From IMG/VR virus record IMGVR_UViG_3300038312_000316: a DNA stretch of 27,756 nt. The stretch is one strand, 5' to 3'. The position numbers and the translations under genes are program-made. The notes below the pieces were generated by a model. It was not told the origin of the DNA. It searched no databases and saw only the letters and a list, made by a program, of their open reading frames with translations. Shown in pieces: positions 11,829-15,548 of the stretch (within the stretch, counting starts at the first letter, position 1; each line of letters opens with the position of its first letter). Source of the stretch: a virus.

Positions 11829-11849
11829 TGTCCTAAACAATTTAGGACA
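11829..11849. repeat. Perfect inverted repeat TGTCCTAAA-CAA-TTTAGGACA; candidate resolvase-binding site
   Basis: 9-bp arms with a 3-nt spacer, overlapping the recombinase stop codon. Confidence 0.6.
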
Positions 11850-12423
11850 CTCTCTCTTTCTTCCTTCGATAGAAGGTGGAGAGCTGATATCCGCACACGA
11901 TCGCGGCGGCTCGCTCCGATAGCCCCTTCTTCTTCCACTTCTCGATCTGCTCCCAATCGACCTCAACCCGCTTCCGGCCGATCTGCTTCCCCTGTGCCCG
12001 GGCCCGGTCGAGCCCTGCTTTAGTATCTTCCTGGATCTTCTTCCGCTGCAGGTCGGCGCCGAGAGTTACAGCCGAGGTGAGTAGGGGTTGTAACTCGGGT
12101 TGAGCATGGAGGACGAACTCGTCTAGCTTGTTGAGCGAGACTACCTTGATACCGGCATCCTGCAATCGCCATATCTCTTGTAGGGTTCCCTTCGCATCCC
12201 GGCCGAGGCGGGACAGGTCGGTGACATACAGCTCCTGCACCTCTCCGGTATCGAGGAGTGCCCGCATCTGTTTGTACCCGGGCCTCTGGTCCGGGTCCTT
12301 TGCACCGCTCACCCCCTGGTCGCGGAAGATCAGGTGTTCGGGGATCCCCGCCTCCCGGAGCTGCTTGAGTTGCCGGCTCATATCCTGGCTGTCTTGAGAG
12401 GTCCGGGCGTATGCTATTTTCAT
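11842..12423 (-). CDS. Small serine recombinase (resolvase/invertase family) with C-terminal HTH
   Basis: IAYARTS (catalytic Ser), Q...Q, D.GVSG...RPG, VTDLSRLGRD, I.E.T.AGL..ARAQGK.IGR. Confidence 0.95.
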   Translation of the reverse strand: MKIAYARTSQDSQDMSRQLKQLREAGIPEHLIFRDQGVSGAKDPDQRPGYKQMRALLDTGEVQELYVTDLSRLGRDAKGTLQEIWRLQDAGIKVVSLNKLDEFVLHAQPELQPLLTSAVTLGADLQRKKIQEDTKAGLDRARAQGKQIGRKRVEVDWEQIEKWKKKGLSERAAAIVCGYQLSTFYRRKKERVS

Positions 12424-12517
12424 GCTGCTATCAATCACTCCCTTTGATAATGTATATATGGTATCAGAACATATATGCCTTTTGACACTTTGGAAATGGT
12501 CGTTTGATGGAGTAAAA

Positions 12518-12733: not shown

Positions 12734-12949
12734 TCACCGCCCCTCACGTTTATATCGCTCCCTTCTCTCCTGCTTGATCCGCTCCCGATACTCCGGGTCG
12801 GTCGCATACCGCTCCTTCGCCCGTGCATCGACGCACTCCGCACACCAGGACATCCGCCCTTGCTTCCAATATGCTCTCGGCCGGAACGCGGACAGGGGGA
12901 GGGTCCGCCCGCATTGGGTGCAGGTCTTCACCTCCTCCTCATCAGTCAA
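12734..12949 (-). CDS. Zn-finger protein resembling the N-terminal module of viral HNH proteins, 71 aa
   Basis: KTCTQCGRTLPLSAF...G..SWCAEC followed by a charged helix. Confidence 0.75.
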   Translation of the reverse strand: MTDEEEVKTCTQCGRTLPLSAFRPRAYWKQGRMSWCAECVDARAKERYATDPEYRERIKQERRERYKREGR

Positions 12950-13703
12950 GAGCTGCCCCCCGTAGCTCTCCGTGCGAAACCTCGCACTTATCGATATACA
13001 CCGTGATATGGCAGGCCGGACAGGTCGTCCGGTGCTGTGACCCCCCGCGATACAACCACGAGTGACCGCACTTGTGACACCGCAGCGGGATCCCCTTCAT
13101 CCGGCGGGCGTGCTCCTCACAGTACGCCCGCACCTCCTCGATACTCTCCACCTCGTCGGCCCCCTCCCCCACGAGGGCCTGCCCGTGCTTGTCCACGGCC
13201 CACACCGGGTAAGCAGTATCGACCCCCTCCGGGATTGGGGCGGAGGGGAGCGCGTCCATCCGTATGTAGTCCTCCGCTTTCCGGTCGGCCCGGTCGGCGA
13301 TCTCGTCCAGTTTCGTGAGCATCTCCACCAACCGGGACACATCCTCCGTATCCCAGGCTCGGATCTCCCGCGCGATGATCCGGGCGGCCCGGTCGAGGAC
13401 CTCGAGGTACGCGGCCCGGTCGATCCCCTCCAGAGTATAGAGGGCCTCGTCGTAGTCCTCCTCGAACCAGATAGGCGGGTCGTCCTCGATCGCCACGGCC
13501 CGCTCCCCGAACGTACTATCTGCAAACTCTCGGAGCGGGTAGAGAAATATAGCCAAAACCAGATCCTTACGATCGCTCTCTGTGAGCGCATCAAGGACCC
13601 CTATTCTAAACTCATCCAGCGCGAGGTACTCCCGCGCTTCGTCGTAGTCGAGCCGGACGCAGACCGCCGGCTCACCGTTCCAGGTGGTAGTTTCAGATCT
13701 CAT
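12942..13703 (-). CDS. Acidic 253-aa protein with C-terminal Zn ribbon, translationally coupled to the RAMP-like gene
   Basis: ATGA overlap at 13700-13703; LRCHKCGHSW...TTCPAC. Confidence 0.8.
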   Translation of the reverse strand: MRSETTTWNGEPAVCVRLDYDEAREYLALDEFRIGVLDALTESDRKDLVLAIFLYPLREFADSTFGERAVAIEDDPPIWFEEDYDEALYTLEGIDRAAYLEVLDRAARIIAREIRAWDTEDVSRLVEMLTKLDEIADRADRKAEDYIRMDALPSAPIPEGVDTAYPVWAVDKHGQALVGEGADEVESIEEVRAYCEEHARRMKGIPLRCHKCGHSWLYRGGSQHRTTCPACHITVYIDKCEVSHGELRGAALD

Positions 13704-14239
13704 TCCTGCCGCTCCCATGCCGTCACCATAAACCGCCCAAACGGCCCTTTCCGCTCGGGCCTGAAGTCCAGCAGCCCAACCCGGGCGCCGGCATCATCAA
13801 CCACCGTCCGAAGTTGCTGCTCTGTGAGCAAGTCGGGGTCGTAGTCCAGGGAAAACATCGTCTCCCAGGCATCTATCCGGGGCCGGACCCGCACGATCCG
13901 CCCCTTTGTCGCCGGGACCACAACGGCCCGGGCGTCGATCTTATAGGTCGTCGTGCCAAGACTGCATTGATCCGGGTCCACGAAGACGCAGGCCGCCACA
14001 GGCTTCTGGAGGGTGGCGCGCCCCTTGCCCTTAGAATACGTCGCCGCAGCGATCAGGGCCCGCTGAATCGCAACGCCCGGGATATAGAGTTCTTGCGTCT
14101 CTCCGTCCCGATAGGCCGCAATCTCGGCCTGCTCTTCCCTACTCTTCTTCTCGATTGCCTGTATGGGTTCCAGGGGGAACCGATGCATCAACAGGGGCGA
14201 AATGCCTCGTATTTTAACGTTTACGCGATTGTTTGCCAT
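13700..14239 (-). CDS. RAMP/Cas7-like RRM-fold protein; Vipr-like RNA-guided DNA-binding protein, 179 aa
   Basis: First strand VKIRGISPLLMH, then LYIPG.AIQRAL..AA, GRIVRVRP..W...F, and a C-terminal Gly-rich loop AG.RVGLLDFRPERKGPFGRF. GAGGT RBS. Immediately downstream of the GGY-NN tract. No other cas genes are present. Confidence 0.8.
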   Translation of the reverse strand: MANNRVNVKIRGISPLLMHRFPLEPIQAIEKKSREEQAEIAAYRDGETQELYIPGVAIQRALIAAATYSKGKGRATLQKPVAACVFVDPDQCSLGTTTYKIDARAVVVPATKGRIVRVRPRIDAWETMFSLDYDPDLLTEQQLRTVVDDAGARVGLLDFRPERKGPFGRFMVTAWERQE

Positions 14240-14293
14240 TGTTTTTACCTCGCCTTAATAGTGCCTCTCTCTCGCGAGATCATCAGCAGATTA

Positions 14294-14413
14294 CCGGGCA
14301 CAGGTTCGACCCCGCACCCGGCTCACCGTGCCTTGCCCTACCGTGCCAAACCCCGCCTGACCCTACCAAACCATGCCGGACCCGGCCCCCAATCCCTCGC
14401 CCGGTTTCCCGGG
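14294..14413 (-). ncRNA. Candidate guide RNA (vrRNA-like): GAAA-tetraloop hairpin, 13x GGY-NN tract, 3' hairpin
   Basis: Minus strand 14389-14325 reads GG GGC CG GGT CC GGC AT GGT TT GGT AG GGT CA GGC GG GGT TT GGC AC GGT AG GGC AA GGC AC GGT. 5' hairpin CCCGG-GAAA-CCGGG at 14413-14400. 3' hairpin CCGGGUGCGGG-GUCGAA-CCUGUGCCCGG at 14321-14294. Confidence 0.8.
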
Positions 14414-14479
14414 GTCATCGGGGTCATCGGGGTCATCGGGGTCATCGGGGTCATCGGGGTCATCGGGGTCATCGGGGTC
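14411..14479. repeat. Tandem repeat (GGGGTCATC)x7 plus a partial unit
   Basis: Directly visible; perfect units. Confidence 0.97.
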
Positions 14480-14538
14480 GGAGTCACGTGCGCAATCCTC
14501 GATCTCCTCGGCCGAGATTCCCTCCCCTGAGGGGGAAT

Positions 14539-14585
14539 GCGGCCCCGGGCCTCGAACCCGGGCGGGGCCTGGTTACCCTCGCCGC
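14539..14585 (-). ncRNA. 47-nt tRNA-like element lacking an anticodon arm, copy 1
   Basis: GCGGC GAGGGTAACCAGGCCCCG CCCGGG TTCGAGG CCCGGG GCCGC; begins right after the stop of 14586..15011. Confidence 0.65.
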
Positions 14586-15011
14586 TTAGTCGATCCACTC
14601 AACCTCAATCACGTCGACAGATCCATCGTCAGACTCGATCTGCACCTCTGCCAGATAGCGGAGCTCCTCCCGCCAAACCGATTCGTAGAGATCTGCGTAC
14701 TCGTCGATCAGATCCTTCTCTTCGGGGGTCAACTCGTCCGGAAATACATCCCGGATCCGCCCCTCGTTGATCCGCTCGTCCCTGGCCTCGTTCCACCACT
14801 GCGTCGTATCGTCTGAGAGCTCGGTCGTAACAAAACGTTCAGGGTCATAGATCTCCGGCCCTATGTAGTACGTTCCGCGCCCGACTGCGCTAACCTTCGC
14901 GCGGCCGTTCGACCAGACAAAAACCCCCATCTCGTCGCCCCCGGTCACGGTAGTCTCATTGTTGTGCAGGATCGCGTCTGCGATCTCCTTCCTAGATAGT
15001 TTGATTCTCAT
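14586..15011 (-). CDS. Acidic hypothetical protein, ~141 aa
   Basis: ATG 15011 (alternative 15026) with GAGG-like RBS. Confidence 0.75.
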   Translation of the reverse strand: MRIKLSRKEIADAILHNNETTVTGGDEMGVFVWSNGRAKVSAVGRGTYYIGPEIYDPERFVTTELSDDTTQWWNEARDERINEGRIRDVFPDELTPEEKDLIDEYADLYESVWREELRYLAEVQIESDDGSVDVIEVEWID

Positions 15012-15075
15012 TCTCGTTCGCCTCATTTTGTTCTGGTTTTGCCCTCTCGGGCGATTCCTAACGGATTTTCTGAAA

Positions 15076-15122
15076 GCGGTCCCGGGCTTCGAACCCGGGC
15101 GGGGCCTGGCTACCCTCACCGC
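15076..15122 (-). ncRNA. 47-nt tRNA-like element lacking an anticodon arm, copy 2
   Basis: GCGGT GAGGGTAGCCAGGCCCCG CCCGGG TTCGAAG CCCGGG ACCGC; 43/47 identical to copy 1; begins right after the stop of 15123..15548. Confidence 0.65.
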
Positions 15123-15548
15123 TCACTCAGTCCAAACATCCACGCGCACCGGGCGATCCCAGTCGCACGCATCGCCCTCGTCCTGCACGTAGGGATCGTA
15201 CTCCTTGCGCTCGACCCAGTAGACTTGAGCAGACCGCCCGGTCTCGATCTCCGTTGCAGAGGCCGCGTATGCGTCCTCCAGGAAGTGGCCGTCGGGGAAA
15301 TCAATCCGGCCCACACAATAGGCCTGTTGTGTGAGTCCGTAGATCCGTCCCAGGAACTCGGCCCACCCCCCCTCATACCCCTGCGCAACATCATACTCGT
15401 ACAAAACCTGCTCGCTGATGTGTTGGAGCAGGTCCGCGTTCTCCCGCTCGTCCTCATCGAGGAGGGCGATCCGGTGTTCATAGATTCTGTTCAGGGTTTC
15501 GAGGTCCTCCGAGGAGTACCCCTCTGTGTTTTCGGTCGTGTACTGCAT
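15123..15548 (-). CDS. Acidic hypothetical protein, 141 aa; N-terminal ~54 aa paralogous to 16149..16811
   Basis: Own promoter; YT.ENTEGYS..DLE.LN..YEHRIA.LDED.REN.D.LQHISEQVL.EYD is shared. Confidence 0.8.
   Translation of the reverse strand: MQYTTENTEGYSSEDLETLNRIYEHRIALLDEDERENADLLQHISEQVLYEYDVAQGYEGGWAEFLGRIYGLTQQAYCVGRIDFPDGHFLEDAYAASATEIETGRSAQVYWVERKEYDPYVQDEGDACDWDRPVRVDVWTE

What the first reader, a model, noticed from the sequence alone, without database searches (positions are those of the whole stretch)
14325..14389. Decoded guide: predicted gapped DNA target
The NN positions read 5'-(GG) CG CC AT TT AG CA GG TT AC AG AA AC-3'. If every third target base is skipped, the target is CGnCCnATnTTnAGnCAnGGnTTnACnAGnAAnAC or its reverse complement GTnTTnCTnGTnAAnCCnTGnCTnAAnATnGGnCG. 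That is 24 specified bases over 35 bp. If aligned to codons, the skip would fall on wobble positions. I found no convincing match in this window by eye, which would be consistent with a foreign target.
Basis: partly seen in the sequence, partly recalled or inferred. Interest (0 to 1): 0.8.

Follow-up and report, generated by a model that had tools for sequence, protein, structure and literature searches.

The report
VIPR guide RNA, target not found
The 65-base repeat is the guide part of the single guide RNA of a VIPR system (a CRISPR-related, RNA-guided DNA silencer published in 2026) on a virus-like element of methane-producing archaea.

Summary
The minus strand 14389-14325 holds 13 perfect NNGGY pentamers. 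The next-longest run in the window is 3, and shuffles reach 3-5.

It is a known kind of element, a VIPR vrRNA (bioRxiv 10.64898/2026.04.26.720920). This scan has already noted VIPR arrays on other DNA (28 notes, at least 25 genomes).

- **Protein:** the gene 85 nt downstream (13700-14239, minus strand) is a Vipr. Its family profile matches the solved SUSP1 Vipr (PDB 36pp) at E=1e-23. The model folds like Csm3/Cas7, and the GGY-reading residues are kept.
- **Relatives:** arrays lie beside vipr in every relative examined in detail. Their NN sets differ completely even at 80-90% protein identity.
- **Decoding:** the 12 dinucleotides and both printed strands are correct under the published skip-one-base rule. 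In the structural register (GGY then NN), the extra unit is the 3' GA, not the 5' GG.
- **Target:** none was found.
  - The best match is 14/24 in the window and 17/24 in 686 kb of related elements, both at or below shuffled guides.
  - There was no exact hit in the viral, metagenome or genome collections.
  - No IMG/VR hit of 22/24 or better turned up.
  - There was no hit with up to 3 mismatches in 401 order-level and 228 family-level methanogen genomes.
"10 of 12 dinucleotides" is too lax for large databases.

This is a new member of a known kind, with a plausible but unverified foreign target.

The parts
14325..14389 (-). Guide segment of the vrRNA: 13 perfect NNGGY (GGY-NN) pentamers
   Evidence: It is the only such array in the window. 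It is identical in L022 apart from one NN base (14328, minus-strand C to T).
14323..14324 (-).
   Evidence: Sequence. The register G1G2Y3N4N5 comes from the cryo-EM paper.
14293..14322 (-). 3' tail hairpin: 12-bp stem, with flanking bases that make up the invariant loop region GGGUCRNACC
   Evidence: Fold z=-3.4. In 13 modules from relatives, 9 of its 12 pairs keep pairing through changes on both sides.
14394..14422 (-). K-turn-like hairpin 5' of the array: CCC / GAU bulge / GA / stem with GAAA loop / GA / GGG
   Evidence: Sequence. The same motif, with a co-varying 3-bp outer stem, lies upstream of 15 of 204 arrays, nearly all in the close archaeal clade. The K-turn reading is inference from the motif.
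14263..14287 (-). Second K-turn-like hairpin (GCU / GAU / GA / UCUC-GCGA-GAGA / GA / GGC) between the tail hairpin and the vipr ribosome site
   Evidence: It is homologous to the inter-array spacer module of relatives.
14247..14256 (-). Two further pentamers, AAGGC GAGGT, that serve as the Shine-Dalgarno region of vipr (7 nt before the ATG)
   Evidence: In relatives the proximal array runs straight into this site.
13700..14239 (-). vipr gene (179 aa, P0001), a minimal RAMP
   Evidence: The family profile hits PDB 36pp 'SUSP1 Vipr protein' at E=1.1e-23 over the full length; the single sequence gives E=9e-6. The AF2 model has pLDDT 97.5. Top Foldseek hits are Csm3/Cas7, probability 1.0. It matches phrog_4652. 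H19, R119, D158, F159 and R160 align with SUSP1 H17, R138, D177, W178 and R179.
12942..13718 (-). 258-aa ORF with weak C-terminal zinc-ribbon matches, a possible accessory (vap) gene
   Evidence: One search gives only sub-threshold Zn-ribbon hits. Homologues sit next to the VIPR locus in the close clade only, upstream in some loci and downstream in others. The assignment is not established.
14410..14479 (-). 7.8 tandem copies of GATGACCCC, the 5' half of the K-turn motif amplified
   Evidence: L022 lacks 54 of these bases.

Best explanation
The array is the programmable part of the only vrRNA of a VIPR system carried by a roughly 26-kb virus-like element of Methanoregula-type methanogens. Shown for the E. 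coli phage SUSP1 and inferred here: Vipr protomers (P0001) polymerise along the RNA, one per pentamer. They bury each GGY and expose the NN pairs. The filament then binds double-stranded DNA in which the NN pairs are matched and every third base is skipped, which silences transcription. By that rule this guide reads 5'-CGnCCnATnTTnAGnCAnGGnTTnACnAGnAAnAC(nGA)-3' on either strand. The RNA is probably cut out of a longer leftward transcript, because no TATA-like element lies between the upstream gene and the array. It carries a co-varying 12-bp 3' hairpin and is flanked by K-turn-like hairpins. Its natural target is most likely a competing mobile element of the same hosts that is not in the collections searched. 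The target remains unidentified.
For: Array statistics. Vipr homology, fold and GGY-reading residues. Relatives examined in detail carry same-strand NNGGY arrays next to vipr, and all 12 IMG/VR loci do. NN sets are unrelated between Viprs that are 80-90% identical, while the spacer modules are conserved. The cassette from K-turn to vipr is 98.5-100% identical to L022, whereas the upstream gene is 84% identical, so guide and effector travel together. There is no self-target, as the discovery paper reports for native guides. Host link: L102 is a Methanoregula sp. MAG contig with a 90% identical Vipr and syntenic neighbours.
Against: No target was found. There were 0 exact matches in viral contigs, metagenome contigs and genome contigs. 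The best IMG/VR hits are 21/24 on unrelated contigs. There were 0 hits with up to 3 mismatches in 401 plus 228 methanogen genomes, while the reversed control pattern gave 4 and 3. Skip 1 is not favoured over other rules for 102 clade guides on the small local set. NN usage is biased (AA and GA make up 29%, more at the last two units), so the 3' units AG AA AC may be partly constrained. Expression, processing and binding are untested.
Confidence: 0.75

Rival explanations
1. The array is mainly a cis-acting Vipr-binding leader that controls translation of vipr, in the way TRAP acts on a leader. It would have no external DNA target.
For: It lies in the 5' untranslated region 85 nt before the ATG. 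Two further pentamers form the ribosome site. No target was found. NN usage is biased.
Against: NN sets are wholly replaced between 80-90% identical proteins while GGY and the spacer modules are kept; drift in a simple binding site would not do this. Relatives carry up to four or five arrays on either side of the gene. The homologous SUSP1 system is shown to target DNA.
Confidence: 0.08
2. It is a real guide, but this clade reads targets by another rule (contiguous, 2- or 3-base skip, or RNA targets), so the printed target is wrong.
For: Skip 1 is not better than the other rules for 102 clade guides. An earlier scan note (e1-5963124) reports a VIPR clade that seems to read contiguous targets. 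P0001 is distant from SUSP1 Vipr (single-sequence E=9e-6).
Against: Exact skip-0 and skip-2 patterns also give 0 hits in IMG/VR, and local best scores are at chance. The residues that read GGY are conserved. The paper applied the 1-skip rule to types III and V as well.
Confidence: 0.1
3. It is a real guide whose target is simply unsampled, extinct or too diverged, or the guide has decayed.
For: All searches were negative. Methanogen mobile elements are poorly represented: the closest IMG/VR Vipr is only 71% identical, and the close clade comes from a handful of metagenomes.
Against: The guide is kept almost unchanged (1 of 65 bases) in L022, although the upstream gene has diverged to 84%. That argues for current use rather than decay.
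Confidence: 0.6

Closest known systems
Type II VIPR of Escherichia phage SUSP1 and the Pseudomonas fulva prophage (bioRxiv 10.64898/2026.04.26.720920; structures 10.64898/2026.04.26.720927, PDB 36pp)
   Same: Both have a single small RAMP protein with the same GGY-reading residues and a vrRNA of GGY/NN pentamers in the published 9-16 repeat range. Both have a structured 3' tail, a vrRNA upstream of vipr on the same strand, carriage on a viral element, and no self-target.
   Different: This host is an archaeon. There is only one vrRNA. The tail is a simple 12-bp hairpin, with no pseudoknot shown. K-turn-like hairpins and tRNA-like elements flank the RNA. No recognisable vap gene and no natural target have been identified.
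Cas7/Csm3 backbone subunits of type III and type VII CRISPR effector complexes
   Same: The RRM core, G-loop and thumb fold are shared (Foldseek probability 1.0, E about 1e-8). Both use one protomer per fixed RNA step, with flipped bases.
   Different: The step is 5 nt rather than 6 nt. Three guide bases are buried per step. There is no CRISPR array and there are no other cas genes. Sequence identity is 10-14%.
Hammerhead-interspersed and single-vrRNA VIPR architectures (types I, III, V)
   Same: The guide is released from a longer transcript by structured spacer elements, and single-guide loci exist.
   Different: Rfam finds no hammerhead or any other family here. The CUGAUGA...GA elements lack the GAAA core and fit a K-turn better.

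Membership tests
VIPR system | Vipr protein homologous to the characterised SUSP1 Vipr | tested here: met
   The profile of 101 family members hits PDB 36pp_D at E=1.1e-23, covering residues 2-176 of 179. The single sequence gives E=9e-6.
VIPR system | Minimal RAMP fold (RRM core, G-loop, thumb) | tested here: met
   AF2 model with pLDDT 97.5 and pTM 0.91. Top Foldseek hits are Csm3/Cas7 chains, probability 1.0.
VIPR system | Residues that read G1, G2 and Y3 (SUSP1 H17, R138, D177, W178, R179) | tested here: met
   They align with H19, R119, D158, F159 (aromatic kept) and R160. Of these, only R119 and R160 are among the nearly invariant columns of the family alignment.
VIPR system | Tandem GGY/NN (YNNGG) array of 9-16 units next to vipr | tested here: met
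   13 GGY motifs (12 YNNGG units) lie 85 nt upstream on the same strand.
VIPR system | GGY conserved and NN hypervariable among relatives | tested here: met
   136 distinct guides in 90 loci. NN sets are unrelated at 80-90% protein identity.
VIPR system | Conserved structured 3' tail | tested here: met
   12-bp hairpin with an invariant loop region and compensatory changes at 9 of 12 pairs. No pseudoknot was tested.
VIPR system | Accessory vap gene | tested here: inconclusive
   The 258-aa neighbour co-occurs only in the close clade, on either side of the locus. It has only sub-threshold zinc-ribbon matches.
VIPR system | Natural target matching the guide by the 1-nt skip rule | tested here: inconclusive
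   No match above chance. The databases cover methanogen elements poorly.
VIPR system | No self-targeting by the native guide | tested here: met
   The best window match is 14/24, below shuffled guides.
VIPR system | vrRNA expressed, bound by Vipr, and able to silence DNA | not testable with these tools
   This needs RNA sequencing, pull-down and reporter assays.
Hammerhead ribozyme (as spacer element) | CUGAUGA ... GAAA core recognised by Rfam models | tested here: not met
   No Rfam match even at E<=5 over 14150-15200. The element has GAG where GAA is required.

The most novel reading that the evidence does not exclude
Archaeal VIPR systems may have their own way of making guides. Each guide is bracketed by a K-turn hairpin (a binding site for the archaeal protein L7Ae) and a 12-bp minihelix, and tRNA-like elements lie nearby. 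Host RNA-processing factors, rather than ribozymes or a pseudoknot cap, would then define the mature vrRNA. On this reading the single guide here is aimed at an unsampled methanogen mobile element.
Probability: 0.3. Interest if true: 0.5.

Novelty: new member of a known kind. Interest (0 to 1): 0.3.

Why it matters
This places a complete single-guide VIPR system on a virus-like element of methanogens, a host group for which such systems have not been described in detail. It gives an exact 35-38 bp sequence that can be synthesised to test whether the skip-one-base rule holds for an archaeal Vipr. It also sets a statistical standard for a 12-dinucleotide guide. Only matches of 22-23 or more of 24 bases mean anything in collections the size of IMG/VR, so '80% NN match' target calls for short guides should be treated with caution.

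Tried and rejected
1. My first reading was a TRAP/CsrA-like periodic protein-binding leader. I dropped it once the neighbour proved to be a Vipr homologue and the NN turnover was seen.

2. Self-target in the window under skip 0, 1 or 2: scores were at chance.

3. The best partial IMG/VR hits were 21/24 (L020; also L111 and L117). L020 also matches the 3' GA. It is a 35-45% GC contig, and its hit has the skipped base at codon position 1. None of the 46 hit loci shares a gene with the window. About 13 such hits are expected by chance.

4. 'Guide spells a rival allele of a neighbouring gene' (earlier scan notes). DNA and degenerate-peptide scans of the window and 686 kb of related elements were both negative: best 17/24 against a shuffled mode of 17, and no peptide hit of 9/14 or better.

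5. Guides of relatives aimed at this window or at each other: none. One 15-unit guide from L031, searched against 228 family genomes, gave 0 hits.

6. A G-U wobble-tolerant pattern gave 0 hits in IMG/VR.

7. Hammerhead or any other Rfam family in the spacers: none.

8. A single-sequence structure prediction was useless (pLDDT 35).

No whole genome is held for the window. The full 28-kb record behind L031 is not held. The paper's supplements are not held.

Full report
**Observation**

On the minus strand, window 14389 to 14325 is 13 consecutive NNGGY pentamers. The NN values are GG CG CC AT TT AG CA GG TT AC AG AA AC.
- No other run longer than 3 units exists on either strand, and 200 shuffles of the window reach only 3-5.
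- A tolerant scan finds no second array.
- Period 5 with a fixed trinucleotide does not fit coding sequence.
- ARAGORN finds no tRNA and Rfam finds no family here, even at E<=5.

**What it is**

- VIPR systems consist of a small RAMP protein, Vipr, and vrRNAs made of 9-16 YNNGG repeats followed by a structured 3' tail.
- Only the NN dinucleotides pair with double-stranded DNA, and the target skips every third base. Either strand can be the target and there is no PAM. Natural targets are competing phages and satellites (10.64898/2026.04.26.720920).
- Cryo-EM shows one protomer per repeat, with the register G1 G2 Y3 N4 N5. It also names the residues that read GGY (10.64898/2026.04.26.720927).

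**The protein**

The ORF 13700-14239 (minus strand, 179 aa, P0001) starts 85 nt after the array.
- It has no Pfam family but matches phrog_4652.
- It belongs to a very large family: 2524 cluster representatives at E<=1e-3.
- A profile of 101 members hits PDB 36pp, 'SUSP1 Vipr protein', at E=1.1e-23 over the full length. The single sequence gives E=9e-6.
- With the alignment, AlphaFold gives pLDDT 97.5. The best Foldseek matches are Csm3/Cas7 subunits at probability 1.0.
- In the profile alignment, SUSP1 H17, R138, D177, W178 and R179 correspond to H19, R119, D158, F159 and R160 here.

**Comparative evidence**

- All 12 IMG/VR relatives carry NNGGY arrays directly upstream or downstream of vipr on the same strand. 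So do the metagenome relatives examined in detail and a Methanoregula sp. MAG contig (L102).
- Viprs that are 80-90% identical to P0001 carry one to four arrays whose NN sets are unrelated to this one, while the spacer modules are conserved.
- L022 encodes the identical protein and has the same guide with one NN base changed (14328).
- In that locus the stretch from the 5' hairpin to vipr is 98.5-100% identical to the window, whereas the upstream gene is only 84% identical. The cassette therefore moves or is kept as a unit.

**Anatomy of the RNA region (minus strand, 5' to 3')**

1. Stop codon of the upstream gene at 14586.
2. A tRNA-like element and a hairpin. A separate follow-up report in this scan covers these; I only read them by eye.
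3. 7.8 copies of GATGACCCC (14479-14410).
4. A K-turn-like hairpin (14422-14394).
5. ATTG, then the array.
6. GA, then a 12-bp hairpin (14322-14293). Its loop region is invariant, and 9 of its 12 pairs show compensatory changes across 13 modules.
7. A second K-turn-like hairpin (14287-14263).
8. AAGGC GAGGT as the ribosome site, then the ATG.

I saw no TATA-like element by eye between 14585 and 14240, so co-transcription with the upstream genes followed by processing is the likelier route. This is inference.

**The decoding**

In the structural register the optional thirteenth dinucleotide is the 3' GA rather than the 5' GG.

There is one caveat. Across 136 guides of the family, AA and GA make up 29% of all NN and are commoner in the last two units. 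The terminal AG AA AC may therefore not be free.

**Target search**

| Search space | Result |
|---|---|
| Window, skip 1 | best 14/24; shuffled-order guides give 15-16 |
| 686 kb of related elements | best 17/24; shuffled mode 17 |
| Degenerate peptides, both orientations | no hit of 9/14 or better |
| Full 24-base pattern, exact | 0 in viral contigs, metagenome contigs and genome contigs |
| Three IMG/VR scans, each with two thirds of the guide exact (these cover every single-mismatch target) | 9, 25 and 12 hits; best 21/24 three times; none 22/24 or better |
| G-U-tolerant pattern, IMG/VR | 0 |
| Exact skip-0 and skip-2 patterns, IMG/VR | 0 |
| 401 genomes of the order of the Methanoregula MAG, up to 3 mismatches | 0; the tool's reversed control gave 4 |
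| All 228 held genomes of its family, up to 3 mismatches | 0; reversed control gave 3 |

- None of the 46 IMG/VR hit loci shares a gene with the window.
- L020, one of the three 21/24 hits, is a low-GC contig, and its hit has the skipped base at codon position 1.
- 102 guides of relatives do no better under skip 1 than under skip 0, 2 or 3 or shuffled order on the local set.
- One 15-unit guide from L031 has no match in the 228 family genomes.

**Statistical power**

The anchor-hit counts imply about 6.6e10 searchable sites in IMG/VR. Chance then gives the following expected numbers of hits:

| Match level | Expected chance hits in IMG/VR |
|---|---|
| 20/24 or better | about 215 |
| 21/24 or better | about 13 |
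| 22/24 or better | 0.6 |
| 23/24 or better | 0.02 |

Only near-perfect matches, or matches in a small relevant set, count.

**Verdict**

The feature is real and is a vrRNA guide of a VIPR system, so it is a new member of a known kind. This scan has noted VIPR arrays on other DNA many times. The predicted target sequence is the correct application of the published rule and can be tested at the bench. Its natural target is unidentified, and the rule is unverified for this archaeal clade.

Noticed in passing
window 14394-14422 and 14263-14287 (minus strand); L023-L033, L102: Each guide array in the close archaeal clade is preceded by a hairpin of the form 3-bp stem / GAU bulge / GA / stem-loop (GNRA-type loop in most copies) / GA / 3-bp stem. 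This is the pattern of a K-turn, the binding site of archaeal L7Ae. The motif was found at 15 of 204 arrays in the family, nearly all in the close archaeal clade.
   Followed up: partly
window 14410-14479: GATGACCCC is repeated 7.8 times. It is the 5' half of the K-turn motif amplified in tandem. The near-identical cassette in L022 has 54 bases fewer.
   Followed up: partly
window 13349-15096 versus L022: There is a mosaic boundary near 14480-14585. The guide, tail, vipr and the next gene are 97.7-100% identical to L022, while the upstream 177-aa gene is 84% identical. This suggests exchange of the VIPR cassette between related elements.
   Followed up: partly
window 12942-13718 (minus strand): A 258-aa ORF with weak C-terminal zinc-ribbon matches lies beside the VIPR locus in the close clade. 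It is downstream of vipr here and in L022, L024 and L025, and upstream of the arrays in L023, L026-L028, L031, L032 and L102. It is a candidate accessory gene.
   Followed up: partly
window 14247-14256 (minus strand): The ribosome-binding site of vipr is itself two GGY pentamers (AAGGC GAGGT). In relatives the proximal array runs straight into it, so Vipr binding could also affect its own translation.
   Followed up: no
136 guides in L001-L104: NN dinucleotides are biased towards a purine in the first position: AA, GA, AT, GG, AG and GT lead. This would fit guides written in the sense of codon positions 1-2, or a structural constraint.
   Followed up: no
L117:2946-2980: This is a 21/24 match of the guide on a 66% GC IMG/VR contig, with all three mismatches in dinucleotides 2-4. 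It is at chance level and was not examined further.
   Followed up: no
window 11842-12438 (minus strand): A serine recombinase (Resolvase domain, E=2e-28) lies two genes from the VIPR locus and is syntenic in L024, L031 and L032.
   Followed up: no
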